This document shows, one piece after another, positions 19,309-46,478 of a stretch of 46,478 nt of DNA (the stretch's first letter is position 1; each line of letters begins with the position of its first letter). The notes under the pieces are model-generated. The model was given only the letters and a program-made list of their open reading frames with translations. It searched no databases and was not told the origin of the DNA. This DNA comes from an uncultured Thiotrichales bacterium (GTDB lineage Bacteria > Pseudomonadota > Gammaproteobacteria > UWMA-0217). The stretch is taken from contig CAZNYF010000001.1 of the NCBI GenBank assembly GCA_964577195.1, positions 1 to 46,478 of the forward strand. Reading direction: 5' to 3'. Position numbers and translations under genes: made by a program.

Positions 19309-20235
19309 CTACCGCTTCAATTTGCGTATGTCTGCAATCACGCCTTGCATAGATTTATCGAACATGGTTTTTTCTTCATCGGTGAGATTGAGCTGAATAA
19401 TCTGCTGCATACCATCTGCGCCAAGCACACAGGGTACACCCATTGCGACATCCTCATAGCCGTATTCGCCTTCCAGAATTGCAACCGTTGGCAGGATGCT
19501 GTTACGCGCTCGCCCAACCGCATCGACCATCGCTGAAATAGCCGCCGCAGGCGCATCGTAGGCGCTGCTGGTTTGGCGTAGCGCGAGGACTTCTGCGCCA
19601 CCGTGTCGGGTTCGCTCGATGATGGCGTCGATCTGCTGTTTTTCCAGTAATTGATCCACGCAGATACCGGAAATGGTTGTGTAGCGGATCATCGGCACCA
19701 TTGAATCACCATGACCGCCAAGCACCATCGCGTTAATTTCTTTCGCGGAATAGCCAGATTCCATGGCAATAAAAGCCGCCATGCGCGATGAATCCAGTAC
19801 GCCAGCCTGACCATAGATTCGATGTCGCGACCAGCCAGTGCGCTGCCAGGTTCGATAGGTCAGCACATCGACGGGATTGGAGACGAGGATAATCTGGCAA
19901 TCCGGCGCATAAAGCATTACATAATCGAGAATGCTATCGAGAATAGAAACATTGGTTTCCAATATATCAGAGCGAGACATGCCGGGTTTTCGGGCAATGC
20001 CAGCGGTGATAATGATGAGGTCAGAATCAGCGATTGATTCTGGATCTGTGCCGCCAGTCACGCGGGTATCAAATTCGAACAGTGGCGCAGTTTGCTGTAC
20101 ATCCAGTGCAGCACCTGCAGCGACTCCTTCTTTCACATCGAGCAAAACAATTTTACGGGTGATATCGAGTCTGGCGATAAACTGAGAGGTTGCTTCGCCG
20201 ACACGTCCTGCACCAATTATGCTGATCTTTTGCAT
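19309..20235 (-). CDS. mdh: malate dehydrogenase (LDH-like, NAD-dependent)
   Basis: 308 aa. Rossmann motif ISIIGAGRVG, substrate loop GIARKPGMSRSDIL with the Arg typical of MDH rather than LDH, and GGHGDSMVP. Confidence 0.88.
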   Translation of the reverse strand: MQKISIIGAGRVGEATSQFIARLDITRKIVLLDVKEGVAAGAALDVQQTAPLFEFDTRVTGGTDPESIADSDLIIITAGIARKPGMSRSDILETNVSILDSILDYVMLYAPDCQIILVSNPVDVLTYRTWQRTGWSRHRIYGQAGVLDSSRMAAFIAMESGYSAKEINAMVLGGHGDSMVPMIRYTTISGICVDQLLEKQQIDAIIERTRHGGAEVLALRQTSSAYDAPAAAISAMVDAVGRARNSILPTVAILEGEYGYEDVAMGVPCVLGADGMQQIIQLNLTDEEKTMFDKSMQGVIADIRKLKR

Positions 20236-20339
20236 GGTCGCTCTCCTGATCTTGTTGTGTAGTATTTCTACGAATCAATGAGCGTTTTAGACACTCATAG
20301 TAAATTCATAGTTGAGGTGAGGCTTCTAAGCAAGTTTGG

Positions 20340-20560
20340 CCAACGTAGGATCAGCTGAGGCACGACCACCAAGGATGGTGGAAGTGCTGGGAACGCAGGA
20401 GCAACTCTCAGTACGACCACCAAGGATGGTGGAAGTGCTGGGAACGCAGGAGCAACTCTCAGTACGACCACCAAGGATGGTGGAAGTGCTGGGAATGCAG
20501 GAGCAATTCTCAGTACGAAGCGCATCAATCGAGGAAGATGCAATCGGTTATAGATAGAGG
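20340..20560 (+). ncRNA. candidate Csr/Rsm-family CsrA-sequestering sRNA (hypothesis)
   Basis: There are 15 GGA and 8 AGGA motifs on the + strand, and no TCC (antisense GGA). Three CCACCA-AGGA-UGGUGG hairpins are present (first at 20366-20381), plus a GCAUC-AAUCGAGGAA-GAUGC hairpin at 20521-20540. The element is antisense to both flanking genes. The ends are undefined; I could not find a promoter or terminator. Confidence 0.3.
20362..20514. repeat. 3 x 51-bp direct tandem repeat
   Basis: Unit acgaccaccaaggatggtggaagtgctgggaacgcaggagcaactctcagt at 20362-20412 and 20413-20463 (identical). The third copy at 20464-20514 has two substitutions. A fourth copy starts with acga and then diverges. Confidence 0.97.
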
Positions 20561-20607
20561 GAGTGAGCTGAAAAGTTTTTGCGCTTCGTACATAGAAAAT
20601 TTACGAA

Positions 20608-21384
20608 CTACTCGCCAAATTGAAATAATTGCTCCGCATTGCGGGTGGTGACTTGGGCGACTTCTTCAACTGAAATATTTTTTAGCGCAGCAATTTTTTC
20701 AGCAACTTCCAAAATCCATCCAGGCTGATTACGTTCCCCGCGATGTCGTTCTCCAGCTTGATCCGGTGCATCGGTTTCGAGCAGCATCGCGCTTAGCGGT
20801 AGTGCTTGTATCACTCGGTGCAAGCGTTTGGAGCCATGCCAGGTAATTGGCCCGCCAAAGCCGAGATAAAAACCCTGTTCGATCAATTTGTGCGCCTGAT
20901 CAATACTGCCAGAGTAGCTATGCATGACGCCGCCTAAATCGTTGAACTCCCTAAACATGAGCATCACCTCTTCCACCGCTTTGCGCGCATGAATAATCAC
21001 GGGGAGATTATATTTCTCTGCCAGCGCCAGCTGTCCATGGAGATAGAATTTCTGTTGTTCGCGATCAGGGTTATCAATATAAAAATCTAATCCGCACTCG
21101 CCCACTGCAACGGGATGCTCAGTAGTAATCAGCGCTTCCAGTTCGATGAGATGTTCTGGTTGATGCGATTCCATAAACATGGGATGTAAACCAAAAGTCG
21201 GGGAGACGGTTGGATATCGAGATCCTAATTTTTTTAGCTCAGACCAAGAGGCTGCGGTAATCGCCGGAGAAATAATCCGCTTAACATGATTTTTAAGCGC
21301 TAGCGTCATGACGGCATCGCGATCTGCTGTGAAAGCTGCCGCATCAAAATGGCAATGAGTATCGATTAGCTCCATAGTATTCAT
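20608..21384 (-). CDS. TatD family metal-dependent hydrolase/DNase
   Basis: IDTHCHFD opening motif, GECGLDFY, HARKA, and ETDAPD near the C-terminus. The frame is open to 21408. ATG 21384 (MNTMELIDTHCH) is preceded by AAGGG and is preferred. Confidence 0.88.
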   Translation of the reverse strand: MNTMELIDTHCHFDAAAFTADRDAVMTLALKNHVKRIISPAITAASWSELKKLGSRYPTVSPTFGLHPMFMESHQPEHLIELEALITTEHPVAVGECGLDFYIDNPDREQQKFYLHGQLALAEKYNLPVIIHARKAVEEVMLMFREFNDLGGVMHSYSGSIDQAHKLIEQGFYLGFGGPITWHGSKRLHRVIQALPLSAMLLETDAPDQAGERHRGERNQPGWILEVAEKIAALKNISVEEVAQVTTRNAEQLFQFGE

Positions 21385-21463
21385 TGAGACCCTTTCGTAG
21401 ATTGACATTAATTCGATATTTCGTCACGCTCCACTTCAACTTAAGAAAATACTAAATTACTTA

Positions 21464-24391
21464 ATGAGTGAAACAGCAAAACAAGCAGAGGGCAGTATAG
21501 AGGTCAAAACCACGACCTGTTATATGTGTGCCTGCCGCTGCGGTATTAAAGTGACGCTAAAAGATGGCGAAATTCGCTATATCGAAGGCAATAAAAATCA
21601 CCCGCTGAATAAAGGCGTGCTTTGTGCCAAAGGTGCATCGGGGATTATGAAACAGTATTCCCCGGGTAGGCTTACCAAGCCGCTGCTTCGTAAGCAAGGC
21701 TCAGAGCGCGGCGCTGGGGAATTCGAAGAAATTTCCTGGGACAAAGCTTTTGGCTTGATGGAAGAACGCCTCGGCAAAATTCGCGCGGAAGACCCCAAAA
21801 AATTCGCCATCTTCACCGGGCGCGATCAAATGCAGGCGCTAACTGGCTTGTTTGCCAAGCAATTTGGCACGCCCAATTATGCGGCGCACGGTGGCTTTTG
21901 CTCGGTCAATATGGCTGCGGGGATGATCTACACCATTGGCGGTTCTTTCTGGGAATTTGGCGGGCCTGATCTGGAACGCTCCAAGCTGTTCTTCATGATC
22001 GGCACGGCAGAAGATCACCACTCCAACCCGTTGAAAGTGGAGCTGGCAAAATTCAAGCGCAACGGCGGACGCTTTATTTCGATCAATCCGGTGCGTACCG
22101 GTTACTCAGCCATCGCTGACGAATGGGTGCCGATCAAGCCGGGTACAGATGGCGCGCTATTTTTAGCCATCATTCATGAGCTGATTAAGCTCGGTCTTTA
22201 TGACCGTGACTTTCTGGTTCGCTACACCAACTCGGCCGAGCTGGTAAATATGGACGAAGCCAGTTCTGAGCACGGCATGTTTGTCCGCTTTGAAGTACCA
22301 GAAGAAGAAGGTTGTTTTGATCCACAGAACAAGCTCTGGTGGGATCGTGATCTCGATAAACCTATCTCCACGCACACCGAAGGTGTTGACCCGTTTCTGA
22401 TGGGGGAATTCGAGCTCTCGGATGGCACCAAGGTTAAACCTGCCTTTCAGTTATTGAAAGAGCGTGTTGAAGAATATACACCAGAATGGGCCGCAGGCGT
22501 TACGGGCATTGATGCCGATACGATTCGCCGGCTTGCGCAAGAAATGGGTGTTACCGCCCGCGATCAAAAAATTGAGCTGCCGATCCAGTGGACGGATTGC
22601 TGGGATAAGGATCATGACACTGTCGTGGGTAATCCAGTGTCATTCCACGCCATGCGCGGGCTCGCTGCACACTCAAACGGTTTCCAGTCGATTCGCGCCC
22701 TGAGCATCCTGATGACGATCCTGGGTACCATTGATCGTCCCGGTGGTTTCCGTCACAAAGCACCTTTCCCGCGTCCGATACCGCCCTGCGCTAAACCCCC
22801 CAATTCACCGGATGCGGTGCAGCCAAACACGCCGCTAGATGGTATGCCCCTGGGCTGGCCAGCTGATCCCGATGATCTGTTTGTTGATGACGATGGCGAA
22901 CCCGTGCGCATCGACAAAGCCTTCTCCTGGGAATATCCGCTCTCGGTGCATGGCTTGATGCACAATGCGATTACCAACGCCTGGCGCGGTGATCCGTACA
23001 AAATTGACACATTGCTGCTGTTCATGGCGAACATGGCGTGGAACTCCTCTATGAACACCACCGAAGTTCGCAAGATGCTGGTGGATAAAGAAGAGGATGG
23101 CGAATACAAGATTCCATTCATCATTGTCTCCGATGCGTATCGCTCCGAAACCGTCGATTTTGCCGATTTGGTGCTGCCGGATACTTCCTATCTGGAACGC
23201 TACGATGCAATGTCGATGCTGGATCGCCCAATCTCCGAGTTTGATGGTCCGGTCGATGCCGTACGCATCCCCGTGCTTGACCCAAAAGGGGACTGCAAAC
23301 CGTTTCAGGATGTGCTGGTAGAGATGGGTTCACGCTTGAAGCTACCCGCCTTCACCAAAGAAAACGGAGAGGCAAAATTTAACGATTATCGTGATTTCGT
23401 GATCAACTACGAAACAGCTCCCGGCTCCGGTATCGGCTTTCTTGCGGGCTGGCGCGGTAAAGGCGGTGAGAAATTCCTGCGCGGCGAACCCAACCCGCGT
23501 CAGTGGGAAATGTATGCAGAGAACGATTGCTTCTATCACCACAAATTGCCCCGTTCCTACCAGTACATGCGTAACTGGAATAAAGGTTATCTGCAATGGT
23601 CGCAGGATCACGGTATGACCCGTTACGCTGAACCGATCAACATTCATGTGTATTCCGAGGTGCTGCAAAAGTTTCGTCTCGCAGCACAGGGCAAAACAAT
23701 CGGTCGTCAGCCGCCAGAGCGTCTGCGTAAACGCGTCGAAACCTATTTTGATCCACTACCGTTTTACCATGAACCACTGGAAACGCAGCTCACCGACACT
23801 CAAAAGTATCCGCTGAGTGCGCTGACGCAGCGACCCATGGCAATGTATCACTCATGGGATTCCCAGAATGCCTGGTTGCGCCAAATCCACACCCACAACT
23901 ACCTGTATATCAATTCAGCGTTAGGCCGAAAGCATGGCCTCGAAGATGGTGATTGGGTTTGGGTGGAATCCCAATGGGGTAAGGTGCGCGGCATGTGCAA
24001 ATTCTCCGAATCGGTCGAGCCGGGCACAGTCTGGACCTGGAACGCCATCGGCAAAGCGGCCGGTGCCTGGGGCTTAACGCCTAAAGCCAATGAATCGCAA
24101 AAAGGCTTTTTGCTGAACCATGTAATTTCCGAAGAACTCCCCGCACATGATGCCGGAGAGCATATCTCCAACTCGGATCCTGTGACCGGGCAAGCGGGTT
24201 GGTATGATGTCAGAGTCCGCATCTACAAAGCCGATAAGTCAGAACCTAAAGAATCATTTCCTCAGTTCAATCCGCTCAAAGCATTGCCGGGAATGGATAA
24301 AAAACGAGGCAAATGGCAAGGCTATGTCGCCGGTAAATTTCGCCAGAGCCTAGGTATGAAACCTAGCAAGCGTAAAGAGGAGAAATCATGA
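21464..24391 (+). CDS. soeA: molybdopterin (Mo-bisPGD) oxidoreductase catalytic subunit without a Tat signal; SoeA-like sulfite dehydrogenase subunit
   Basis: 975 aa. N-terminal FeS cluster motif C-YM-C-ACR-C...C (TTCYMCACRCGIKV...LCAKG). No twin-arginine motif precedes it (MSETAKQAEGSIEVK), so the protein is cytoplasmic. Size and gene order match Allochromatium SoeABC as I recall it. Substrate specificity is inferred. Confidence 0.7.
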   Translation: MSETAKQAEGSIEVKTTTCYMCACRCGIKVTLKDGEIRYIEGNKNHPLNKGVLCAKGASGIMKQYSPGRLTKPLLRKQGSERGAGEFEEISWDKAFGLMEERLGKIRAEDPKKFAIFTGRDQMQALTGLFAKQFGTPNYAAHGGFCSVNMAAGMIYTIGGSFWEFGGPDLERSKLFFMIGTAEDHHSNPLKVELAKFKRNGGRFISINPVRTGYSAIADEWVPIKPGTDGALFLAIIHELIKLGLYDRDFLVRYTNSAELVNMDEASSEHGMFVRFEVPEEEGCFDPQNKLWWDRDLDKPISTHTEGVDPFLMGEFELSDGTKVKPAFQLLKERVEEYTPEWAAGVTGIDADTIRRLAQEMGVTARDQKIELPIQWTDCWDKDHDTVVGNPVSFHAMRGLAAHSNGFQSIRALSILMTILGTIDRPGGFRHKAPFPRPIPPCAKPPNSPDAVQPNTPLDGMPLGWPADPDDLFVDDDGEPVRIDKAFSWEYPLSVHGLMHNAITNAWRGDPYKIDTLLLFMANMAWNSSMNTTEVRKMLVDKEEDGEYKIPFIIVSDAYRSETVDFADLVLPDTSYLERYDAMSMLDRPISEFDGPVDAVRIPVLDPKGDCKPFQDVLVEMGSRLKLPAFTKENGEAKFNDYRDFVINYETAPGSGIGFLAGWRGKGGEKFLRGEPNPRQWEMYAENDCFYHHKLPRSYQYMRNWNKGYLQWSQDHGMTRYAEPINIHVYSEVLQKFRLAAQGKTIGRQPPERLRKRVETYFDPLPFYHEPLETQLTDTQKYPLSALTQRPMAMYHSWDSQNAWLRQIHTHNYLYINSALGRKHGLEDGDWVWVESQWGKVRGMCKFSESVEPGTVWTWNAIGKAAGAWGLTPKANESQKGFLLNHVISEELPAHDAGEHISNSDPVTGQAGWYDVRVRIYKADKSEPKESFPQFNPLKALPGMDKKRGKWQGYVAGKFRQSLGMKPSKRKEEKS

Positions 24392-25119
24392 CACAACTCG
24401 CATTGGTAATTGATCTAAATGTTTGTGTTGGCTGCCATGCCTGCGTGACCAGCTGCAAGGAGTGGAACACGTCTGGTCTGGCCGGGCCGATGTATGATCA
24501 GCAATCGTATGATAAAGACCCCACCGGCACATTTTTTAATCGCGTCCAGACCTTTGAAGTGGGCGAGTATCCGAATTGCGAAACCGTCCATTTTCCGAAA
24601 AGCTGCCTGCATTGCGAAGACCCGCCTTGCGTGCCTGTGTGTCCCACCGGTGCCAGCTACAAGCGCGAGTCAGATGGCATTGTGTTGGTCGATTACGATA
24701 AATGCATCGGTTGCAAATATTGCTCATGGGCTTGTCCTTATGGCGCGCGCGAGCTGGATGAAAAGCAGAAGGTGATGAAAAAATGCACCCTCTGCGTGGA
24801 TCGAATCTATAACGAAGAGCTGCCAGAAGAGGATAGGAAACCAGCTTGTGTAATGGCCTGCCCCACCAGTGCGAGATTATTCGGTGATGTACATGATCCA
24901 GACTCGGAAGTCTCTGTCGCTATCCGCGAAGAAGGCGGCTACCAGCTGATGCCCGAATGGGGAACCAATCCGGCCAATCACTATTTGCCGCGCCGTAAGG
25001 TAAAAATCAAACTGCACCCGGATGAACTTGAGCGTGCTGATAATCCGCTTTCCAAAGAGGAACGCAGACCATCCGGTGCAACGGATAAACCAACACTGGA
25101 CGACTTCACCACTTGGTAG
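24388..25119 (+). CDS. soeB: 4Fe-4S ferredoxin-type electron-transfer subunit (DmsB/PsrB family; SoeB-like)
   Basis: 243 aa with four Cys clusters (CVGCHACVTSC; CLHCEDPPCVPVCP; CIGCKYCSWACP; CTLC...CVMACP). The start overlaps the soeA stop as ATGA. Confidence 0.75.
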   Translation: MTQLALVIDLNVCVGCHACVTSCKEWNTSGLAGPMYDQQSYDKDPTGTFFNRVQTFEVGEYPNCETVHFPKSCLHCEDPPCVPVCPTGASYKRESDGIVLVDYDKCIGCKYCSWACPYGARELDEKQKVMKKCTLCVDRIYNEELPEEDRKPACVMACPTSARLFGDVHDPDSEVSVAIREEGGYQLMPEWGTNPANHYLPRRKVKIKLHPDELERADNPLSKEERRPSGATDKPTLDDFTTW

Positions 25120-25134
25120 GCATTAGCTACTAAC

Positions 25135-25178
25135 AGTAAATTCGTAGGCTGTGCTGAGCCTGCGAAGCGCATCATTCG
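25135..25178. repeat. REP-like palindromic element (second copy of the element framing the 51-bp repeats)
   Basis: The sequence is agtaaattcgtaggctgtgctgagcctgcgaagcgcatcattcg. It forms the hairpin ttcgtaggct/agcctgcgaa (25141-25166, 9/10). Its left 13-mer matches 20299-20311 (12/13) and its right 16-mer matches 20516-20531 (15/16), in the same order and orientation. Confidence 0.55.
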
Positions 25179-25236
25179 CGAAAAAAAGATGTGCGATTCT
25201 TCAGCACACCATCAATATTTTTTTGGACAAAGAACC

Positions 25237-26217
25237 ATGCATCCTGCTTTCTCAGTCATCTTCTTAACCACCTTGATCGGCGCTGGTCAGGGTTTGTTTC
25301 TGGCGCTCTACACCGCGCAGGTTTACTCGCGCTTTAAACTGTTACCGCAGCACAATATCGAGCAGTTCTATATTTACGGCACAGTCATTGCCGTCGCTTT
25401 GTTGGTGGCTGGTTTGATTGCATCATTCTTCCATCTCGGCCACCCTGAACGCGCCTGGCGTTCTGCCGCAATGTGGCGTACCTCCTGGTTATCGAGAGAA
25501 GTTATTGCCTTGCCAATCACCATGCTACTCATTGCACTCTATGGCGTGGCACACTACTTCGAATTCACCCAGCCGCTATTTCAAATGCCCGGTGGAACCG
25601 CGGTAGACCCAACCTTGCTGCTGGGACTCGCTGCAACCATTGCCACTTTCGCACTCTTCGTTTGCACCGGCATGATTTACGCTTGCATTAAATTCCTACA
25701 AGAATGGCACAGCCCGCTCACCGTAATAAACTACACGCTACTAGGTACAGCTTCCGGCTTTACATTGGCAACCGCATTATCCGCCTGGATGAAAACAGGA
25801 CTCACTGGATTCTATGCAGGTTGGTCGCTAATCATTACCGTACTGGCATTGATATTCCGTCTCGCATCGCTGAGAAGAAATCGTCGCCTGAGGCCAAAAT
25901 CAAACCCTAAAACCGCAATCGGTGTCAGGCACTCCAACATCAAGCAAATATCCATGGGTGCGATGGGCGGAACCTTTAACACCCGTGAGTTTTTTCACGG
26001 CAAAAAAGAAAGCTTCGTTAAAAGCACTAAAATGATTTTCCTCGTGCTGGTATTTTTAGTCCCAATAATTTTATTAGGCGTAACATTCTCCAACCCTGTC
26101 TATCTCATTCCCGCCATCGCTTTCGCCATTCAATATCTCGGCTTGCTGGCAGAGCGCTGGTACTTCTTTGCCGATGCCAAGCATCCGCAAAATATTTACT
26201 ACCAAAGTATTGGCTAG
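25237..26217 (+). CDS. soeC: DmsC/NrfD-like membrane anchor subunit (SoeC-like)
   Basis: About eight hydrophobic helices. The typical family opening MHPAFSVIFLTTLIGAGQG begins at ATG 25237. The upstream part of the track ORF (25189) lacks similarity and is discarded. Confidence 0.7.
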   Translation: MHPAFSVIFLTTLIGAGQGLFLALYTAQVYSRFKLLPQHNIEQFYIYGTVIAVALLVAGLIASFFHLGHPERAWRSAAMWRTSWLSREVIALPITMLLIALYGVAHYFEFTQPLFQMPGGTAVDPTLLLGLAATIATFALFVCTGMIYACIKFLQEWHSPLTVINYTLLGTASGFTLATALSAWMKTGLTGFYAGWSLIITVLALIFRLASLRRNRRLRPKSNPKTAIGVRHSNIKQISMGAMGGTFNTREFFHGKKESFVKSTKMIFLVLVFLVPIILLGVTFSNPVYLIPAIAFAIQYLGLLAERWYFFADAKHPQNIYYQSIG

Positions 26218-26258: not shown

Positions 26259-26672
26259 ATGAAAAAAGATAATCACTTACTTACACAAAGTCAGGTGTAC
26301 TTTAAAGCGATTGCCAATAGCCGCTTGTGTTGTGCTTATCTATTCGGCAGTGTTGCACGCGGAAATGCCCGCAAAGACAGCGATATAGATATTGCTGTTT
26401 TATATAACGCTATGCCGGAAGCAACATTGAAAGATTCTGGATTGGATATCGCCAGCGGTTTGGAAGAACTACTAGGCCGGGAAGTTGATTTAATTATACT
26501 AAACCGAAGCTCCCCGGACCTCATTCATAAAGTTTTACGCGATGGTGTTCTGATTTTCGATCATAACCCAGGCAAGCGAATTGCTTTTGAAATACAAGCA
26601 CGTAATGAGTATTTTGATATCAAACCTTATCTGGATGAATATCGATCAAGTACCCACCAAAATACGGGATAA
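26259..26672 (+). CDS. mntA: MNT-domain nucleotidyltransferase, type VII antitoxin MntA
   Basis: Minimal nucleotidyltransferase motif GSVARGNARKDSDIDIAV (GS...DxD). It lies immediately upstream of a HEPN/DUF86 gene. Confidence 0.85.
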   Translation: MKKDNHLLTQSQVYFKAIANSRLCCAYLFGSVARGNARKDSDIDIAVLYNAMPEATLKDSGLDIASGLEELLGREVDLIILNRSSPDLIHKVLRDGVLIFDHNPGKRIAFEIQARNEYFDIKPYLDEYRSSTHQNTG

Positions 26673-26678
26673 CAACCT

Positions 26679-27089
26679 ATGGTTGATCAGGATTTACTGT
26701 TTAAAAAACTCGCATTTATTGAAACCTGCGTAGCTGATTTGCAGCGGCATGCCAATCTCCAGCAAATAGAAACAGATATCCGTGAAGAACGGTTCGTCGA
26801 ACATACGCTTCAGTTGGCGATTCAAGCGGCTCTGGACGCAAGTTCTCATGTCGTATCAGCAGAAAAGCTGGGTGAGCCAGAAACCAATCGGGCGCTATTT
26901 CAAAAACTGACAGCAAATGGATGGATTCCTGAAGCGCTGGCAGTGAATTTACAGAATATGGCAGGGTTCAGAAATATACTGGTGCATGGTTATGCCGATG
27001 TTGATCTTAGTATTCTTAAAGATATTGTTGAGCACCATCTGGATGATTTATTACATTTAGTCAGGTGTGTTCGAAGAAAGACGAAATGA
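26679..27089 (+). CDS. hepT: HEPN-domain (DUF86) RNase toxin HepT
   Basis: 136 aa with the Rx4HxY motif as RNILVHGY. It starts 6 nt downstream of mntA. Confidence 0.85.
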   Translation: MVDQDLLFKKLAFIETCVADLQRHANLQQIETDIREERFVEHTLQLAIQAALDASSHVVSAEKLGEPETNRALFQKLTANGWIPEALAVNLQNMAGFRNILVHGYADVDLSILKDIVEHHLDDLLHLVRCVRRKTK

Positions 27090-35809: not shown

Positions 35810-36338
35810 AACCGCCTTGGCTATTTGACAGTCAGTAAGCGCTTTCTTTTCGCCTATCTTTAATCTTCTCCTGAGATTGTTTGTTCTTCTATTACTGTAG
35901 TCATAGTAGATAATTACTCGGCATCTTCCCATCTATCCCTTTTGCGTTTGTCTTTTCTGACAGAGATTGATTGAACTTAAAGAATCAATCGCAGCTCTAA
36001 CCCTCGATCCTAACTCAACTAAGATCAAGTTATTGCCTAGGACATTCGTGCTATCTCATTTGCTAAGTCACTTTTTATGTGACTAATGGCGCTTAATGAT
36101 TTAGCTGAAGACGTCGAAATGGAACCATTTTGGTTTTCATCTTTCGAACCTTCCACAAAGCGTGTATTTACACCAAGCACTTTTGGAACGAATGCAGGTT
36201 ACTTCTTTATTCAGCGATTGTTGTTTAACAGTATTGTGCTGTTAGCTAGATAAAAGAATCAATAACAAAAATCAGCGCATGTGGCATAGAGATGTCGCTC
36301 AGCTAAGCGCAGTTAGTCAAATTAAATAGTGGTTATTT

Positions 36339-37625
36339 ATGTATCTAGAATATTACGGTTTAAATACAAACCCTTTTCAAATTGCAGTGAACCCCGATCT
36401 TGTTTACTTGAGTCAAAGTCATGCAAGAGCAAAGGCCTATTTATCCTATTCAATTTGGAAATGGGATGGTTTTTCGGTTATTACCGGTAAACCTGGTACG
36501 GGTAAAACGCTGCTGGCGAAAAATTTAATTTCACGCCTTAAAGAGGATGTAACAGTTGTTTATTTAAATCACACGCGGCTGTCTACCAAAGAATTTTTAA
36601 GAAGTCTTGCAGCTAATTTAGGTGTTCCAGCGTTCAATGCTGAAAAAGCCGGGTTGATTTATACGATTACTCAATTTCTACAAGAGCAAAATAAAGCGGG
36701 TAATCAGGTGTTGCTGGTCATTGATGAAGCGCACCACCTGAGTCGTGGAATTCTTGAAGAGATTCGTTTTCTAACGGCCCTGGAGCATGATTCGAAACCA
36801 CTACTTAATATTATTCTTGTTGGCGATGAGACTTTATTAAATAAGTTTGATCATCCGGGGATGGAGCAGCTACGCCAGCGTGTGAGACTTTGGTATTCAT
36901 TATCTCGTCTCGATAAGCAAGGCGTAAAAGAATATATCAATTATCGATTGACTATGTGCGGACGAGAAACACACGGAATATTTACGGATGCTGCTATATC
37001 TTTATTGCATAGTTTTACAGAAGGTACGCCCCGTCTTGTGAATGTGCTTTGCGATGCCGCAATGGTTGCTGCTTATGTTAAAGAAGATACAACGGTAAAC
37101 ACCTCGCACGTTCGAACAGCTTTGGATGAACTGGGTTGGGATAAGTTTACAGGCAAATCAATTATGCAGAAGAAACAACGAATGTTGGATTTATCTGCCT
37201 CGGATATTACTGAGCCCAGAAAAAAAAATTGTTATCCCAAGTTAGAGATCAGCAACAAAGGTCTTTTAATGGCGGAGCTGATTCTCGATAAGGAAAGTAT
37301 TTCTATTGGTAGTCAGGAATCAAATGACTTTTTGTTTGAAGGTTTGTCGGTATGCGAACACCATGCGGTCATAAACCTTGTTGATGGTGACTACCTTTTA
37401 GAAGATTTAGATACCCATAACGGGACTTATGTCAACGGAAGAAAGATTAAAAGTCATGTTTTAAAAACAGGAGATATTATTGGAATTGCTACCTATCAAC
37501 TCCAATTTACGCTTCACCAACGAGAAGATACAGAGCCATTACAGTTATCGATTAATGATCTATTAGAAAGATCTATTGAATTAGATACTTTTGAATCCAG
37601 GAGTATTGATCGTCTCACAGGATAA
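36339..37625 (+). CDS. ExeA/GspA-like AAA ATPase (PEP-CTERM-locus secretion ATPase type) fused to a C-terminal FHA-like domain
   Basis: The opening YLEYYGLNTNPF, Walker A GKPGTGKT and Walker B LLVIDEAHHL are typical of ExeA-like/AAA_22 ATPases. Residues about 300-392 (nt 37236-37514) follow the FHA pattern (ISIGS....F......VCEHHAVI......YLLEDLDTHNGTYVNGRKI). Confidence 0.8.
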   Translation: MYLEYYGLNTNPFQIAVNPDLVYLSQSHARAKAYLSYSIWKWDGFSVITGKPGTGKTLLAKNLISRLKEDVTVVYLNHTRLSTKEFLRSLAANLGVPAFNAEKAGLIYTITQFLQEQNKAGNQVLLVIDEAHHLSRGILEEIRFLTALEHDSKPLLNIILVGDETLLNKFDHPGMEQLRQRVRLWYSLSRLDKQGVKEYINYRLTMCGRETHGIFTDAAISLLHSFTEGTPRLVNVLCDAAMVAAYVKEDTTVNTSHVRTALDELGWDKFTGKSIMQKKQRMLDLSASDITEPRKKNCYPKLEISNKGLLMAELILDKESISIGSQESNDFLFEGLSVCEHHAVINLVDGDYLLEDLDTHNGTYVNGRKIKSHVLKTGDIIGIATYQLQFTLHQREDTEPLQLSINDLLERSIELDTFESRSIDRLTG

Positions 37626-37747
37626 ATTTACTTAAGGACTTTCTTACCTATCTATGAACTCGTATTTGTATTCAACTCTGGCGTCTGTGTCCAACCTGCT
37701 TTGTCCAGAACAAATCAGTGATTCTTCAATAAAATAAGTATTCAAAT

Positions 37748-39175
37748 ATGGCAAGTATTCGAATTTTCGGTCAGCGAGTACCCATTGTGTTTTTTATACT
37801 CGCATTGGTAGAGCTAGTAATATTCGTTGCATCAGTCTACATGGGCGCCTATTTTCGTAACTTTTTGACCGGTGATCTTGCCGGATCAACAAGTATCGAC
37901 ATGGTCGAGCGAATTACCGGGCCACTCATTCCTGCGTCGCTGGTTTTTGCTTCGGTAATGATTGTATCGATGGTCTCCATGGGGCTGTATAACATCAGTT
38001 ATCTTAGGTTACGACGAGACAGCGTGATTTTACGGATATTCTCCGCACATGTTTTTGGAACATTGTTATTTATTTTTGTAGTCTATGCGATCCCGAGTTT
38101 TTTTCTAGGGAGAAGCGTACTCATCATTGCGATTATATGCTCTTCGATTTTAATCTGGGTTGCCAGAAAAGTCTTTGTTGGGATTTTTGACTCAAGTATC
38201 GGGCGACGAAATGTCCTTGTTTATGGTTCTGGCACGCGAGCAAAGTCTATTGAATTAATAGAAGAACAGTTAGTGCATCATGGCGTCAGGTTGTGTGGAT
38301 TTATTCGTGTCAATAAAGAGGCTGTTGACGTGAGTTCAATTCATATTGTTGATAATTTTGAGCCGTTACCTGATCTAGCAGTACGGTTAGACGTTGATGA
38401 AATTGTTGTTGCAGCGGAAGACCGCAGAAATTCTCTAATGATAGATGAGCTTCTAGAGTGTCGTCTAAAAGGTATTGTTATTACGGATATTGCAACCTTT
38501 TTTGAGCGTGAATCTGGGAAATTACAGCTAGAAGTGATGTCTCCCAGTTCGCTGATATTCTCTTCTGGATTTGATCATAGTTATTTCAGAGCTTTTTTTG
38601 AGCGCTCTCTTGATCTGTTTGGTAGTAGTGTATTACTAGCCGTTTCCTGGCCAATTATGCTAATTACAGCATTGATGATAAAAATGGAAGATGGGTTACA
38701 TGCCAGTGTTATATATCGTCAAACACGTATTGGTAAAAATGGTCACCCTTTTAGTGTTCTAAAATTTCGTAGCATGCGCGAGGATGCTGAAAAGCTTGGA
38801 GCAGTTTGGGCGATAGAAAATGACGATAGAGTTACCCGGGTAGGTGCAGTAATTCGCAAGTTGAGGATAGATGAATTACCTCAAATATTGAACGTGTTGA
38901 ATGGTGAGATGAGTTTTGTAGGACCACGTCCAGAAAGGCCTGAGTTTGTAAAAGAATTAATTAAGAAATTGCCATATTACGGGGAAAGGCATCGAGTTAA
39001 ACCAGGTATAACTGGATGGGCGCAGCTAAATTATCCTTATGGAGCATCCGATCGAGATGCGCTGGAAAAACTACAATACGATATGTACTACACGAAAAAC
39101 CACAGCTTTCTATTGGATCTTTTTATACTTGTACAAACGGTAGAAATTGTTGTTTTCGGAAAAGGGTCTCGTTAG
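37748..39175 (+). CDS. exopolysaccharide priming sugar transferase (PEP-CTERM-system-associated EpsB-type)
   Basis: N-terminal transmembrane helices and a central Rossmann-like region VLVYGSGTRA. The C-terminal bacterial sugar transferase domain has LKFRSM, DELPQILNVLNGEMSFVGPRP and KPGITGWAQLNY. Confidence 0.88.
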   Translation: MASIRIFGQRVPIVFFILALVELVIFVASVYMGAYFRNFLTGDLAGSTSIDMVERITGPLIPASLVFASVMIVSMVSMGLYNISYLRLRRDSVILRIFSAHVFGTLLFIFVVYAIPSFFLGRSVLIIAIICSSILIWVARKVFVGIFDSSIGRRNVLVYGSGTRAKSIELIEEQLVHHGVRLCGFIRVNKEAVDVSSIHIVDNFEPLPDLAVRLDVDEIVVAAEDRRNSLMIDELLECRLKGIVITDIATFFERESGKLQLEVMSPSSLIFSSGFDHSYFRAFFERSLDLFGSSVLLAVSWPIMLITALMIKMEDGLHASVIYRQTRIGKNGHPFSVLKFRSMREDAEKLGAVWAIENDDRVTRVGAVIRKLRIDELPQILNVLNGEMSFVGPRPERPEFVKELIKKLPYYGERHRVKPGITGWAQLNYPYGASDRDALEKLQYDMYYTKNHSFLLDLFILVQTVEIVVFGKGSR

Positions 39176-39230
39176 TAAGCAGAGGTGCTAGGTAGTGTTT
39201 GGTTTTTCAATAAAGAATAAAAGTAGAAAA

Positions 39231-41840
39231 ATGACTTATATATTAAATTTCGCATATTTAACTAGAATAATAAGTGCTTTGGGCATTACCTTGATCTTGG
39301 GCGGCTGTCTTTCATCAGAGACGGGAAATCAAACATCTGATGAAAATATGGAAGCAGTAAGAATTGCTATGTCAATCAATGATGATTATGAAGCAATTAA
39401 CTTATTGAAAAAAATTCTGTTACAAGATCCAGCCAATTATAAGGCTAGAATACTGATAAGCCGAGTATACCTTAAAAATGGTGAGTCAGATAAAGCGATA
39501 GCTAATATAGAAAAAGCTGCTCAACATGCACCACAGAGTGACCTGGTTCTTTTGGATACAGGCAATATTTTACTAAGTCTAAGAGAATATAGTGCTTTAC
39601 TAAAACGAATTGAAGTGGATGATAATTTGGATGAGGTGAGTAACTCTAATATTATTGGTTTGCGTTCACAGGCATTTTTGGCACTCGATAACATTGAGGG
39701 TGCAAAAAAGGAAATCTCTCGATCTAGTAAGTTTTCAGAGCGTGGAATGAATAATGTGTTAGCTCGAATTAAAATAGAAATTGCCAGCGAAAATTACTCT
39801 CGTGCCAGTCAATACCTTGAAACTGCGATAGCCAGTTTCCCAGATGAGAAGCGTTTTGAATGGCTGCTGGCTAGAATAGAGCTTAATCGTGGCGACAATG
39901 AAAAAGGTTTAAAAAGACTTAGAGGATTGATGGACCATCAAAGCCCCGGTTATTCTCCGATGTTAGCGCAAAGATCGGGTTATGAATTGATTAAAGCGGA
40001 AGTGACTGAGGGTAACTTGGAAGAAGCTGAGAAAATTGTTAAGGATCTCTTCGCACGCAACAAAAATGATGTTAGAGCGCTATATTTGGGTGGGCTAGTA
40101 GCATTGATTAGCGGAAAATATCATCTGGCAGAAAGGCGACTTCTGAAATTGGAAAAGAGCTACTCAATAGAATCAACCAGATTGCTACTTGGCGTAGTTT
40201 ACATGGCAACAAAGTCGTATGAGCGATCGAGGTATTATTTGGCAAATTTCTATGAAAAGAATCGCGGTAATATCTGGGCCGCGAAGCTACTGATTAGAAG
40301 CTATATTCTCCTGGGTGAGACATATGAAGCAGCACAAGTATTAGCGACTTTGGATAATGAGATATCGGATACTAATGATGATGCGGAGCTACTTATATTA
40401 CGTACGATGTTGTCTAGATCCAATAGTAGTCGAGCGACTATTTCTGAGCAATTGCAACGCGCATCGTCAATCGTTAAAGATAACTTGATAGTACGCAAGC
40501 TACTTTCCAAAGCACTTTTAGACAATGGTCAGTTGAATGAATCTTTGGTTCATTCAACTTACGTGCTTGAACGTCAACAACTGGATGCGGGAGCATTAGA
40601 GCTTGCGGTTTTGGCGCTGACTCGAAGAAATAAAAATCGAGAAGCTACCGACTTGATTAAAACATTCGCTTCAGCGGGAGGAGACCAGGTTGTTGCCGGC
40701 AATCTACAGGGGTTAATTCACTTGTTTTCCGGAAATTATTCAGAAGCTATTGAAACCTTTGAGCACTTGCCCGAGGCGTATTCCAAGCATTGGGAAATTA
40801 AGCTTAGTCTAGCAAAAGCTCATGAATTAAACGGAGATCTCGCATCAGCTAATAAGTTATTTAACTCATTGGTGCTTGAGCCTGAAGCCAGAGCTGAGGC
40901 ACTGAATGGTTTGTTGAGAACGGCATACCTGGAAGGTAGTGTCCAAGGCTTGGGTAAAGCGGTAGAAATCTCTAGAAACTATAACTATAAGTCTGTTGAT
41001 CCACTGATTTATTCAGGTGCAAGATATATTCAATTAGAAGATTTTGAGAATGTTAAAGAAATAGTTGAATCGATTCGTCTTCTAAGTCCTGGGCATCCTA
41101 GTGAAAAACTTCTTTTAGCGATTGCAGAGAAAAAAAAGGGTAATTATATTTCGGCCGAAGAAATCACTCGAACGACACTAGCCAGTAACCCTGATTATCA
41201 GCCGCTGCTGTTCTTAATGGCTAGCCTGAAAAAAAGAACTGGCGACATAGCCGAGGCTGAAAAATATTTCAGTCAATTAGGTGGCTCACCGAGTCTTAAA
41301 CAAGAAGCTGATCTTAATAAGTTAGAATTTACCGAGATTGAATGGGCAAGAAATATTCTACCTGTATTGAGTTCTGCATCATCTGATACCCTGTCTGAAG
41401 ATAAAGCTTTTATTAGTTTATTGAAATTAGGAGAGGATGAGATACAAAACACGACGTCTCATAGCGAATTAAGGTTTTCTGATCCTTCGACAAAACAAAA
41501 CTATTCCCACGGTCGTAGTGGCGATATGGCGCGTATTAATCGTACTTTGCTGTTTAACTACTACGGTGGTTTTGTTGAGGGTGCGATGAATGAGAAACAA
41601 CTGGCACGAAAAGCAAAAGATGGTCTGCTGTATGATAAGGGGTCTTGGGAAGTATACGAAGAATTAAATTCTATCTTGGGGCGCCAGAAACAATTTGGGC
41701 GTGGTTCGAGTTATAAAGATTTTAAACGTGAACTAAAGCTGCCTTCCTGGGTGGCTCTCATAGGAATAATTATTGTCATAGTCGTTATAATTTCACGTTC
41801 ACGTGCGCACAAAAGGAGACGTAAGGTGTTCGCTGATTGA
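39231..41840 (+). CDS. large TPR-repeat lipoprotein (PrsT / PEP-CTERM system TPR lipoprotein-like)
   Basis: Signal peptide with lipobox L-G-G-C (MTYILNFAYLTRIISALGITLILGGC). About 800 aa of TPR-like repeats follow. The unusual C-terminus has a transmembrane helix plus RSRAHKRRRK. The track start 39195 is GTG, so ATG 39231 is preferred. Confidence 0.8.
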   Translation: MTYILNFAYLTRIISALGITLILGGCLSSETGNQTSDENMEAVRIAMSINDDYEAINLLKKILLQDPANYKARILISRVYLKNGESDKAIANIEKAAQHAPQSDLVLLDTGNILLSLREYSALLKRIEVDDNLDEVSNSNIIGLRSQAFLALDNIEGAKKEISRSSKFSERGMNNVLARIKIEIASENYSRASQYLETAIASFPDEKRFEWLLARIELNRGDNEKGLKRLRGLMDHQSPGYSPMLAQRSGYELIKAEVTEGNLEEAEKIVKDLFARNKNDVRALYLGGLVALISGKYHLAERRLLKLEKSYSIESTRLLLGVVYMATKSYERSRYYLANFYEKNRGNIWAAKLLIRSYILLGETYEAAQVLATLDNEISDTNDDAELLILRTMLSRSNSSRATISEQLQRASSIVKDNLIVRKLLSKALLDNGQLNESLVHSTYVLERQQLDAGALELAVLALTRRNKNREATDLIKTFASAGGDQVVAGNLQGLIHLFSGNYSEAIETFEHLPEAYSKHWEIKLSLAKAHELNGDLASANKLFNSLVLEPEARAEALNGLLRTAYLEGSVQGLGKAVEISRNYNYKSVDPLIYSGARYIQLEDFENVKEIVESIRLLSPGHPSEKLLLAIAEKKKGNYISAEEITRTTLASNPDYQPLLFLMASLKKRTGDIAEAEKYFSQLGGSPSLKQEADLNKLEFTEIEWARNILPVLSSASSDTLSEDKAFISLLKLGEDEIQNTTSHSELRFSDPSTKQNYSHGRSGDMARINRTLLFNYYGGFVEGAMNEKQLARKAKDGLLYDKGSWEVYEELNSILGRQKQFGRGSSYKDFKRELKLPSWVALIGIIIVIVVIISRSRAHKRRRKVFAD

Positions 41841-41887
41841 TTGTGGAACTAAAGCCAAAATACAGCGTCTATAATACAACCATGAAG

Positions 41888-41917
41888 GAACATCTCTTAC
41901 AGAAGAGATGTTCTTAT
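41888..41917 (+). terminator. candidate intrinsic terminator after the TPR lipoprotein gene
   Basis: Perfect 11-bp stem gaacatctctt/aagagatgttc (41888-41898 / 41903-41913) with loop acag, followed by ttat. The stem is A/T-rich and the U-tract is short. Confidence 0.45.
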
Positions 41918-42055
41918 AACAATAACAATCATGACGGAAATATTCAAAATATCGACCACTAGTCCGGCGATACCAAATTACCTCCGTAGTTGTTTCAATT
42001 ACTAATCTGGTCAATTTTAAGACATTTATAAATTAACTAGCTGGGAATAAATTTT

Positions 42056-44751: not shown

Positions 44752-45040
44752 AATCTTCAATTTAGCGCTATCGCGTAACGTCGCAGCTTTACCTTCAAGG
44801 GATTTAGCCAAGGCATTCGATACCTGTCTAGAAGGCAGAATCGGAAATTAGGAGAAATATACAGAACTATAATAATAGAGCCGTAGTATTGGGCACCTAG
44901 GATACAAGTGTACTTCTTTAAAAGCCAACGCAGCTATGAATATTTAAAGAACTTGTATAAGAAGATAACGCTCAAACCTAGCTTTTACACGTTATATACC
45001 AATAATAAAGAGAAATAAACAATTTCTCAGGAGTGCCAAG

Positions 45041-46321: not shown

Positions 46322-46348
46322 TAATTAATATAATTACTAATTTTGTCT

Positions 46349-46378
46349 GGCCTAAGTGTTGTACCTACTAGGCCTTTA
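46349..46378 (+). terminator. weak candidate terminator after the ligase-like gene
   Basis: Stem ggccta/taggcc (46349-46354 / 46369-46374) followed by tttata. The stem is short and the loop is long. Confidence 0.25.
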
Positions 46379-46478
46379 TATGTAGAAGTTTAGACCCAAT
46401 CTGACACATGGCTAAATCAAGTGAGCGTAAGCGAACTTGATTTAGCGAGAGTTACCCGTTTTGATGTAACTGCTTAAT

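What the first reader, a model, noticed from the sequence alone, without database searches (positions are those of the whole stretch)
20340..20560. Triplicated 51-nt module presenting AGGA-loop hairpins: candidate CsrB/Rsm-type CsrA sponge RNA between mdh and tatD
The 372-bp gap between two minus-strand genes holds three tandem 51-nt units (20362-20514).

Read on the + strand, each unit folds as CCACCA-AGGA-UGGUGG, a 6-bp stem with an AGGA tetraloop (first copy 20366-20381). The local sequence CAAGGAUG equals the core of the SELEX CsrA site RUACARGGAUGU, in which GGA sits in a hairpin loop. Each unit also carries a second AGGA (GCAGGAGC).

Flanking the units are GUAGGAUC (about 20346) and the hairpin GCAUC-AAUCGAGGAA-GAUGC (20521-20540). 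By hand count there are 15 GGA and 8 AGGA motifs on the + strand across this region, and no TCC (antisense GGA). The signal is therefore strand-specific and antisense to both neighbouring genes, as expected for an independent sRNA gene.

Modular GGA-hairpin repeats are the defining architecture of CsrB/CsrC/RsmX/Y/Z.

Weak points: I found no GacA/UvrY box (TGTAAG-N6-CTTACA), no convincing sigma70 promoter and no canonical intrinsic terminator. The repeats are also embedded in a REP-like element (see the finding at 25135).
Basis: partly seen in the sequence, partly recalled or inferred. Interest (0 to 1): 0.7.

Follow-up and report, generated by a model that had tools for sequence, protein, structure and literature searches.

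The report
Amplified hairpin-repeat module, not an sRNA gene
The three 51-base repeats are real and do carry CsrA-site-like AGGA hairpins, but they are a locally amplified module of a scattered, mosaic hairpin-repeat family found in unrelated places (even inside a gene) in several gammaproteobacteria, not a conserved CsrB/Rsm-type small-RNA gene.

Summary
Exactly 153 nt (3 x 51, window 20366-20518) sit in the 372-nt tatD-mdh gap. Each unit folds into two hairpins capped by AGGA.

The interpretation as a CsrB/Rsm sponge gene is not supported. No Rfam family reaches its gathering score (RsmY 26.8 bits against 57). There is no GacA/UvrY box, promoter or terminator. The nearest relatives with the same synteny (MDH 86% and 79% identical) lack the element.

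The same unit occurs at 10 other loci, including Bowmanella denitrificans and an uncultured Pseudomonadales genome. The genomic contexts are unrelated and both orientations occur. Copy number runs from 1 to 4 tandem copies. One copy is an in-frame insertion in a DNA methylase gene, and one is nested inside another unit. Units are often interleaved with other hairpin modules of opposite polarity. In the window the array splits a copy of a second repeat, whose intact copy lies at 25141-25185.

Across 25 distinct units the stems covary strongly. The loops keep A(N)GGA(N) and GCA(N)GGAGCA. CsrA binding of any transcript therefore remains possible but untested.

Best reading: a BIME/BOX-like mosaic repeat, apparently undescribed, with a recently amplified module.

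The parts
20236..20607 (.). 372-nt spacer between the TatD-family gene (upstream on the minus strand) and mdh.
   Evidence: ORF list. NCBIfam assigns malate dehydrogenase and YchF/TatD family.
20366..20518 (+). Tandem array of exactly 3 x 51 nt (module B). Unit slices are 20363-20414, 20414-20465 and 20465-20516.
   Evidence: TRF score 300. Copies are 100/100/96% identical. The covariance model R1 scores the units at 76-79 bits.
20366..20381 (+). Hairpin 1 of unit 1, CCACCA-AGGA-UGGUGG. It is repeated at 20417-20432 and 20468-20483.
20384..20414 (+). Hairpin 2 of unit 1: GUGCUGGGA / UCUCAGUAC stem with two G.U pairs, capped by GC-AGGA-GC. It is repeated at 20435-20465 and 20486-20516. In copy 3 both substitutions lengthen the stem.
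   Evidence: Folds and pair counts.
20338..20365 (+). Left half of a second repeat (module C), GGCCAACGTAGGATCAGCTGAGGCACGA, which the array interrupts.
   Evidence: With 20366-20518 removed, the gap aligns contiguously with 25141-25185 (alignment A7). The contiguous pattern matches only at 25153-25178.
20519..20541 (+). Right half of module C, AGCGCATCAATCGAGGAAGATGC, including the GCAUC-loop-GAUGC hairpin.
   Evidence: Direct-repeat family D17 links 20516-20536 with 25163-25183.
20513..20591 (.). 12-bp perfect long-range inverted repeat, GTACGAAGCGCA (20513-20524) / TGCGCTTCGTAC (20580-20591), directly after the array. No U-run follows it on either strand.
   Evidence: It forms in the minimum-energy folds of both strands. 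No terminator call.
25141..25185 (+). Uninterrupted paralogue of module C, between the Fe-S subunit gene and the DmsC/NrfD-like gene.
   Evidence: It folds with a 10-bp stem.
19309..20235 (-). mdh (LDH-like malate dehydrogenase), whose start codon lies 127 nt from the array.
   Evidence: NCBIfam TIGR01763 and NF004863.
20608..21408 (-). TatD/YchF-family hydrolase gene.
   Evidence: NCBIfam TIGR00010.

Best explanation
The array is a recently amplified module (B) of a scattered, mosaic family of short hairpin repeats. In kind it resembles REP/BIME elements of enterobacteria and BOX elements of pneumococci.

Shown:
- One B unit is about 51 nt and forms two hairpins.
- B units occur singly or as 2-4 tandem copies.
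- They are often interleaved with other small hairpin modules in the opposite polarity.
- They sit in unrelated intergenic sites, and once inside a gene.

Inferred:
- In this genome a B unit entered a copy of another repeat (module C) in the tatD-mdh spacer.
- It was then triplicated by slippage or unequal recombination.
- The element is probably transcribed passively with its neighbours and acts, if at all, as an RNA or ssDNA hairpin (for example as an mRNA 3'-end stabiliser or a recombination substrate).
- The conserved unpaired segments (CGAC, A(N)GGA(N), GGAAGUG, GCA(N)GGAGCA) with freely covarying stems indicate recognition of the single-stranded folded form by some sequence-specific factor. 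That factor is unknown; a mobilising enzyme and CsrA are both candidates.

It is not an orthologously conserved, GacA-driven Csr/Rsm sRNA gene.
For: 1. Same unit, unrelated contexts.
- L002: uncultured Pseudomonadales, between divergent EamA and poly(A)-polymerase-family genes.
- L021: between convergent fliL and gcvH.
- L018: upstream of a GH17-like gene.
- L028: upstream of rlpA.
- L029: Bowmanella denitrificans JL63, between two co-directional genes.
- L041-L045.

2. Insertion behaviour.
- In L017 the unit lies within a 21-residue in-frame insertion in an N6/N4 DNA methylase, absent from three homologues 59-71% identical.
- In L043 an inverted B-like unit is nested in loop 1 of another unit.
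- In the window, deleting exactly 153 nt restores module C.

3. Absence from orthologous spacers. L030 (MDH 86% identical; the upstream gene there is only presumed to be tatD) has a 154-nt spacer. L035-L037 (MDH 79%, same ActB-TatD-mdh-WcaJ synteny) have 202 nt. These spacers cannot be aligned with the window, and the model finds no unit in them.

4. Copy number and mosaicism.
- Copy number runs from 1 to 4, with identical neighbouring copies in the window and in L028.
- A 103-nt A+B super-repeat occurs in Bowmanella.
- GGA-loop hairpins lie on both strands in 7 of 11 regions.

5. No sRNA gene signals.
Against: - High copy number within one genome, the hallmark of REP/BIME, is not shown. There is only one locus in this 46-kb contig and only one exact 25-mer in the whole Pseudomonadales assembly.
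- No RAYT or other candidate mobilising gene is seen in the sequence held.
- No target-site duplication is evident.
- In classical REPs the stems and GTAG are conserved and the loops vary. Here the loops are conserved and the stems vary, and the unit is shared across different gammaproteobacterial lineages. That fits a conserved host factor such as CsrA better than a lineage-specific REP/RAYT pair.
- In four mosaic arrays the B-sense strand runs into an A-run/hairpin/U-run terminator. In L002 that terminator lies between divergent genes, which hints at an independent transcript there.
Confidence: 0.7

Rival explanations
1. One reading: the plus strand of the gap is an independent sRNA gene. 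Its six AGGA-loop hairpins would sequester CsrA/RsmA dimers, making it a CsrB/Rsm-type sponge.
For: - 14 GGA and no TCC on the plus strand.
- Hairpin 1 matches the SELEX core, and the 26-nt inter-site distance lies within the CsrA bridging range.
- A sub-threshold RsmY hit, E = 1e-4 in a 451-nt search.
- GGA is kept in 24/25 loop-1 and 25/25 loop-2 sequences, with 12 of 16 stem pairs showing compensatory changes.
- In the window, L002, L017a and L028 units, G.U pairs make the GGA strand 4-7 kcal/mol more stable than its complement.
Against: - RsmY scores 26.8 bits against a gathering score of 57, and its terminator stem is aligned to a unit hairpin with no U-tail.
- No Csr/Rsm hit appears in six related loci.
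- There is no GacA/UvrY box, promoter or terminator.
- The element is absent in syntenic relatives.
- Units occur inside an ORF and in both orientations.
- The strand energy advantage is not consistent across the family; Bowmanella units favour the other strand.
- Hairpin 2 is a 9-13-bp helix, whereas SELEX ligands mostly had 4 or fewer contiguous pairs.
- No csrA gene lies in the 46 kb, though that is uninformative for the genome as a whole.
Confidence: 0.12
2. Cis-acting element of the tatD/mdh transcripts. Read on the minus strand, the array would form UCC-loop hairpins in the tatD 3' UTR or the mdh leader. There it could protect the mRNA end, attenuate read-through, or mimic the anti-Shine-Dalgarno sequence.
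For: - Both neighbouring genes are on the minus strand, and the array lies 127 nt upstream of the mdh start and about 90 nt after the tatD stop.
- The minus-strand RNA also folds well (z = -5.7).
- In the window, L028, L029 and the L017 in-ORF copy, the sense strand of the neighbouring genes carries the UCC version.
Against: - There is no conserved partner gene.
- Orientation relative to neighbours is not uniform: L021 and the second L017 copy are GGA-sense.
- The orthologous spacers do without the element.
- Two pairs per hairpin 2 become C.A mismatches on this strand in the window's units.
Confidence: 0.12
3. The repeat encodes a small repetitive protein: the 73-aa plus-strand ORF at 20336-20557 or the 82-aa minus-strand ORF at 20295-20543.
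For: - The period is a multiple of three, and two frames on the minus strand and one on the plus strand are open.
- Gene callers have annotated such ORFs elsewhere (P0001, P0002, P0126-P0131).
Against: - Both ORFs start with TTG, and the open frames overlap on opposite strands.
- The called ORFs elsewhere are fusions with unrelated sequence, for example an N-terminal extension of RlpA.
- Conservation follows the RNA/DNA pairing pattern (covarying stems), not codon positions.
- Single units and partial units (hairpin 2 alone in L042) also occur.
Confidence: 0.02

Closest known systems
BIME / REP (PU) mosaic elements of enterobacteria and REPINs of Pseudomonas
   Same: - Short imperfect palindromes in extragenic DNA.
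- They are combined into mosaics in which successive hairpin modules alternate in orientation.
- Tandem copy number is variable.
- They are frequent next to terminators and between convergent genes.
- They are thought to act as single-stranded hairpins.
   Different: - No GTAG motif; module junctions here read GTAC, TATAC or ATAC.
- No RAYT gene is seen in the sequence held.
- Here the loops are conserved and the stems vary, the reverse of REPs.
- Abundance per genome is unproven.
- The unit is shared between different gammaproteobacterial lineages, whereas REP/RAYT systems are mostly lineage-specific (from the abstract listing and general knowledge).
BOX elements of Streptococcus pneumoniae (boxA-boxB(n)-boxC)
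   Same: A modular repeat in which an internal module of about 45-50 nt is tandemly amplified a variable number of times between two other modules. In the window the arrangement is C-left, B x3, C-right. This comparison rests on my own knowledge of BOX.
   Different: Different phylum. No sequence comparison was run; I recall no similarity. B units also occur alone or with other partners, so C-B-C is not a fixed architecture.
Rickettsia palindromic elements (RPE)
   Same: A palindromic repeat that can insert in frame into protein-coding genes without destroying them, as in the L017 methylase. This comparison rests on my own knowledge of RPE.
   Different: RPEs are 100-150 nt and confined to Rickettsia. 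Only one in-ORF case was seen here.
CsrB/CsrC/RsmX/RsmY/RsmZ sponge sRNAs
   Same: Repeated hairpins with A(N)GGA in the loop. Hairpin 1 resembles the RsmY hairpin to which the covariance model aligned it. The spacing of the two sites suits a CsrA dimer.
   Different: - Below the Rfam thresholds.
- No GacA/UvrY box, promoter or terminator.
- Not syntenic.
- The copies are near-identical, pointing to recent amplification, rather than anciently diverged repeats.
- Family members are scattered, occur in both orientations and can lie inside ORFs.

Membership tests
Csr/Rsm sponge sRNAs (Rfam CsrB, CsrC, RsmX, RsmY, RsmZ) | Covariance-model match at or above the family's gathering score. | tested here: not met
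   No hit at gathering threshold in the window or in eight related loci. The best match is RsmY at 26.8 bits against 57. No Csr/Rsm hit at E <= 1 in six related loci.
Csr/Rsm sponge sRNAs | Many GGA motifs on one strand, mostly in hairpin loops. | tested here: met
   14 GGA and 0 TCC in 20340-20560. Six predicted AGGA-capped hairpins. However, this is one unit copied three times.
Csr/Rsm sponge sRNAs | GacA/UvrY upstream box (TGTAAG-N6-CTTACA) and its own promoter. | tested here: not met
   No box with up to 3 mismatches within 19900-21000, and fewer matches in the window than in shuffles. None near any of the 10 related arrays. No promoter-like site in the gap.
Csr/Rsm sponge sRNAs | Rho-independent terminator at the 3' end. 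| tested here: not met
   No terminator-like site. The 12-bp stem at 20513-20591 is not followed by a U-run.
Csr/Rsm sponge sRNAs | Orthologous conservation of the gene in related genomes. | tested here: not met
   The spacers upstream of mdh in the nearest relatives (L030; L035-L037 with confirmed TatD-mdh synteny) are 154 and 202 nt, cannot be aligned, and lack the unit.
Csr/Rsm sponge sRNAs | Expression as a discrete RNA, and CsrA binding or titration. | not testable with these tools
   No transcriptome or binding data. No csrA in the 46 kb, and the rest of the genome is not available.
REP/BIME-type mosaic interspersed repeats | Short imperfect palindromes that fold as hairpins. | tested here: met
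   Unit folds. 89.5% of cells paired across 27 rows.
REP/BIME-type mosaic interspersed repeats | Many copies scattered over unrelated extragenic sites of one genome. | tested here: inconclusive
   11 loci in unrelated contexts across genomes. Two copies lie within the 2.9-kb contig L017. But there is only one locus in the 46-kb window and one exact 25-mer in the whole CANKXO01 assembly.
REP/BIME-type mosaic interspersed repeats | Mosaics of modules in alternating orientation with variable tandem copy number. | tested here: met
   L002 is A-B-A and L029 is A-B-A-B-B-B-A'. L021, L041 and L043 are also mosaics. Hairpins of opposite polarity were counted.
REP/BIME-type mosaic interspersed repeats | Conserved GTAG and a cognate RAYT (Y1 transposase). 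| tested here: inconclusive
   Junctions read GTAC, TATAC or ATAC rather than GTAG. GTAGG does occur in module C. No Y1 transposase appears among the Pfam calls for the loci held. Whole genomes were not searched.
BOX-like modular repeats | An internal module amplified in tandem between two terminal modules. | tested here: met
   Removing 20366-20518 rejoins the two halves of module C.
BOX-like modular repeats | Sequence homology to pneumococcal boxA/B/C. | not tested
   No BOX sequence was available in the tools. I recall no similarity from memory.

The most novel reading that the evidence does not exclude
The B unit, and the other modules with CA(N)GGAUG loops that accompany it, may be a mobile two-hairpin cassette whose conserved loops are genuine CsrA/RsmA binding sites. 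Insertion or amplification of a unit would then place a bidentate CsrA-dimer site into whatever transcript covers it. That would create ad hoc sponges or bring neighbouring genes under Csr control. It would also explain why loops, not stems, are conserved across Alteromonadaceae, Pseudomonadales and vent gammaproteobacteria.
Probability: 0.15. Interest if true: 0.8.

Novelty: new variant of a known kind. Interest (0 to 1): 0.4.

Why it matters
For annotation, this is a caution. A dense, strand-specific run of GGA hairpins can arise from a single amplified repeat unit and can even draw a sub-threshold RsmY hit.

For repeat biology, it defines what seems to be an undescribed mosaic hairpin-repeat family. 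It has no Rfam family at gathering score, and literature searches found no description of it. The family has an unusual signature: conserved unpaired segments and freely covarying stems, shared across distant gammaproteobacteria. One host, Bowmanella denitrificans JL63, is cultured, so transcription, CsrA binding and mobility can be tested directly.

Tried and rejected
1. Rfam at gathering threshold on the window and eight loci gave nothing. In E-value mode the only Csr/Rsm-related hit was the sub-threshold RsmY match, plus chance hits to mir-2970, IRES_Pesti and BSnc120.

2. An exact-protein look-up of the TatD gene found nothing on record. The MDH look-up found only a short Logan contig that breaks inside the repeat.

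3. The metagenome pattern scan returned 25 loci, most of them chance matches to the 19 fixed bases. L003, L006, L013 and L025 form one coding-looking family that I judged unrelated.

4. Viral contigs gave two chance matches in coding DNA. A plasmid blastn search gave no match.

5. I tested whether RNA stability is consistently higher on the GGA strand. It is not.

6. I looked for an excess of GGA-loop hairpins elsewhere in the window. There is none: 17 found against 11.9 +/- 3.3 in shuffles, and six of the 17 are the array itself.

7. The simple terminator scanner missed terminators that are obvious on reading and folding, so its negative result in the window gap is weak evidence on its own.

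8. Literature searches for REP plus CsrA/GGA and for RAYT in Alteromonas found nothing relevant.

9. Four of the ten representative-library hits (P0123, P0124, P0125, P0130) are unrelated repetitive proteins.

10. P0127 is a probable further array, but no DNA could be fetched for it.

Full report
**What is in the sequence**

The gap between mdh (19309-20235, minus strand) and a TatD-family gene (20608-21408, minus strand) is 372 nt. Tandem Repeats Finder reports 3.1 copies of a 51-nt unit at 20362-20518, 98% matching, score 300. Copies 1 and 2 are identical and copy 3 has two substitutions.

A single unit is CGACCACCAAGGATGGTGGAAGTGCTGGGAACGCAGGAGCAACTCTCAGTAC. It folds into two hairpins (-20.9 kcal/mol, z = -3.5):
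- Hairpin 1 is CCACCA-AGGA-UGGUGG.
- Hairpin 2 has a 9-bp stem, GUGCUGGGA/UCUCAGUAC, with two G.U pairs, topped by GC-AGGA-GC.

I count 14 GGA, 8 AGGA and no TCC in 20340-20560. The caveat is that 12 of the 14 GGA are four motifs copied three times.

The whole plus-strand region folds very stably (z = -8.0) and the minus strand less so (z = -5.7). Part of this comes from pairing between neighbouring identical units.

**Tests of the sRNA-gene reading at this locus**

- No Rfam family reaches its gathering score anywhere in the window.
- In a permissive search of the 451 nt around the gap, RsmY scores 26.8 bits against a gathering score of 57. The model's hairpins, including its terminator stem, are aligned to copies of hairpin 1, and there is no U-tail.
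- There is no promoter-like or terminator-like site inside the gap. The scanner is crude, though, and missed clear terminators elsewhere.
- There is no GacA/UvrY box near the gap; matches in the window are fewer than in shuffles.
- No csrA lies in the 46 kb. That says nothing about the rest of the genome.

**The locus is not conserved**

The window is a complete 46,478-nt NCBI contig. Its MDH occurs otherwise only in short Logan contigs, and one of them is identical up to the repeat and breaks inside it.

The nearest MDH relatives are 86% identical (L030, a hydrothermal-vent metagenome) and 79% identical (L035-L037). L035 has the same ActB-like, TatD, mdh, small ORF, WcaJ order as the window. 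In L030 the gene upstream of mdh is cut by the contig end and is only presumed to be tatD. The spacers upstream of mdh are 154 and 202 nt. They cannot be aligned with the window's spacer (alignment A2) and contain no unit detectable with a covariance model of the unit.

**The unit occurs elsewhere, in unrelated places**

Three searches found further copies:
- An exact 25-mer scan of 185,579 species genomes found one copy, in an uncultured Pseudomonadales genome (L002).
- A metagenome scan that fixed only the stem and linker bases, leaving both loops free, found three true homologues among many chance hits: L017, L018 and L021.
- Spurious ORFs called across such arrays were fished with a chimeric peptide and with the window's 82-aa ORF. 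This added L028, L029 (Bowmanella denitrificans JL63, identified through PMC5887035), L041, L042, L043 and L044/L045.

The contexts all differ:
- L002: between divergent EamA and poly(A)-polymerase-family genes.
- L021: between convergent fliL and gcvH.
- L028: upstream of rlpA.
- L018: upstream of a GH17-like gene.
- L043: downstream of rpmE.
- L029: between a CarboxypepD_reg-domain gene and an amidase gene.

Copy number runs from 1 to 4.

**Evidence that the unit behaves as an insertion**

- In L017 the unit lies antisense inside a 641-aa N6/N4 DNA methylase ORF. Aligned with three plasmid-borne homologues (59-71% identical), the protein carries a 21-residue in-frame insertion exactly there.
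- A second, more diverged unit lies 1 kb away on the same 2.9-kb contig.
- In L043 an inverted B-like unit is nested in loop 1 of another unit.
- In L042 hairpin 2 occurs duplicated on its own.
- In the window, removing exactly 20366-20518 (153 nt) joins GGCCAACGTAGGATCAGCTGAGGCACGA to AGCGCATCAATCGAGG. The joined sequence aligns contiguously with a second repeat at 25141-25185 (alignment A7).

**Mosaic organisation**

In L002, L021, L029, L041, L043 and L044 the B units are interleaved with other small hairpin modules. On the B-sense strand the loops of those modules read UCC, which is GGA on the other strand. Examples are TCGCA-TGGA-TGCGA, GTCCA-TGGA-TGGAC, CTACA-GGA-TGTAG and TTCA-AGGA-TGAA.

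A count of perfect-stem GGA-loop hairpins finds them on both strands in 7 of 11 regions. Bowmanella has a 103-nt A+B super-repeat as well as the 51-nt repeat. Alternating polarity and variable tandem number are the architecture of BIMEs. A middle module amplified between two end modules is the architecture of BOX elements. The strand-specific GGA signal in the window is thus a property of a pure B-B-B array, not of the family.

**What is conserved**

A covariance model built from 14 units recovered 25 distinct units from 11 loci.

- Hairpin 1 arms are CCACC/GGTGG, CCGCC/GGCGG, CCCAC/GTGGG, CCTCC/GGAGG or CTGC/GCAG.
- Hairpin 2 has 24 different arm pairs.
- On the model-fitted alignment, 89.5% of cells are paired.
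- 12 of 16 pairs show changes on both sides.
- 66 cells carry compensatory changes, against 17.8 +/- 4.3 in shuffles.
- All slid controls score far lower. The MAFFT alignment, which is not fitted to the structure, gives the same direction.

By contrast the unpaired parts are conserved. Loop 1 is A-N-GGA-N in 24 of 25 units, and loop 2 is GCA(N)GGAGCA-like with GGA in 25 of 25.

There is an ascertainment caveat. The peptide-based fishing favours conserved loops. Among the three loci found with loops unconstrained, GGA is present in 2 of 3 loop-1 and 3 of 3 loop-2 sequences.

Conserved single-stranded segments with covarying stems imply that some factor recognises the folded single strand. Which strand, and whether as RNA or DNA, is not settled. 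The GGA strand is 4-7 kcal/mol more stable in the window, L002, L017a and L028 units, but not in the Bowmanella units.

**Bearing on CsrA**

The loops fit CsrA sites. The SELEX consensus is RUACARGGAUGU with GGA in a hairpin loop, and a dimer can bridge sites 10-63 nt apart (PMC7652899). The two GGA of a unit are 26 nt apart. If the GGA strand is transcribed, CsrA binding is plausible.

Several points argue against a dedicated sponge gene:
- There is no GacA/UvrY box at any of the 11 loci.
- Polarities are mixed within arrays.
- One copy lies antisense inside an ORF.
- Hairpin 2 is much longer than the stems of 4 or fewer pairs typical of SELEX ligands.

One point remains unexplained. In L002, L021, L041 and L043 the B-sense strand runs into an A-run/hairpin/U-run terminator. 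In L002 this terminator lies between divergent genes, so an independent transcript may exist there.

**Verdict**

The feature is real. Its most likely nature (about 0.7) is a recently amplified module of a mosaic, scattered hairpin-repeat family. I found no description of this family in Rfam or in the literature searches. It is not a member of the CsrB/Rsm families.

Whether its AGGA loops bind CsrA is an open and testable question, most easily addressed in the cultured host Bowmanella denitrificans JL63. High copy number per genome, and the mobilising mechanism, are not shown.

Noticed in passing
window 25141-25185: An intact copy of the second repeat (module C: CGTAGG-N5-GCTGAG-N4-CGAAGCGCATCAWTCG) lies between the Fe-S subunit gene (24388-25119) and the DmsC/NrfD-like gene (25189-26217). 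It folds with a 10-bp stem and carries GTAGG, as REPs do.
   Followed up: partly
L001 1137-1976 versus window 19255: The Logan contig from SRR17622022 is 100% identical to the window from inside the repeat down to window 19255. It then continues into a DUF4096/DDE_Tnp_1 transposase instead of the window's sequence. This looks like a population variant with an IS insertion 54 nt downstream of mdh.
   Followed up: partly
L043 602-654 (within 560-660): An inverted B-like unit (CCTCC-ATGGAT-GGAGG ...) is nested inside loop 1 of another B unit, with ATGG on both sides of the insert. This suggests that the loop itself may be an insertion target.
   Followed up: partly
L002 4859-4909: An AT-rich copy of hairpin 2 (AAGTACTAAAAATGTAAGAATCGTTTTTAGTAC) differs from the B consensus almost only by G>A and C>T transitions. 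It keeps the stem but has lost GGA, so it looks like a decayed unit.
   Followed up: no
L029 11009-11471 (Bowmanella denitrificans JL63): A separate tandem repeat, period 204, 2.2 copies, 86% matching, lies in an intergenic region after an HTH_6 regulator gene.
   Followed up: no
L003, L006, L013, L025: Four metagenome contigs share one GGA-rich segment containing CCACC-TGGRCT-GGTGGAAGTGCTGG, apparently inside long coding sequence. The unit model scores them at 26-32 bits. I judged them unrelated but did not examine them further.
   Followed up: no
window 36000-46478: G+C drops from about 0.47-0.54 to 0.38-0.42 over a block of polysaccharide genes (Bac_transf, TPR protein, Wzz/GNVR, Wzy_C, plus an AAA_22/FHA protein). 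This may be a horizontally acquired EPS island.
   Followed up: no
window 26259-27089: An MntA-family (type VII toxin-antitoxin) nucleotidyltransferase antitoxin gene is followed by a 136-aa ORF that could be its HepT-like partner.
   Followed up: no
L002 5070-5104, L021 7522-7560, L041 258-285, L043 352-385: Clear A-run/hairpin/U-run bidirectional terminators follow the mosaic arrays, yet the simple terminator scanner did not report them as such. Its negative calls should therefore not be over-read.
   Followed up: yes
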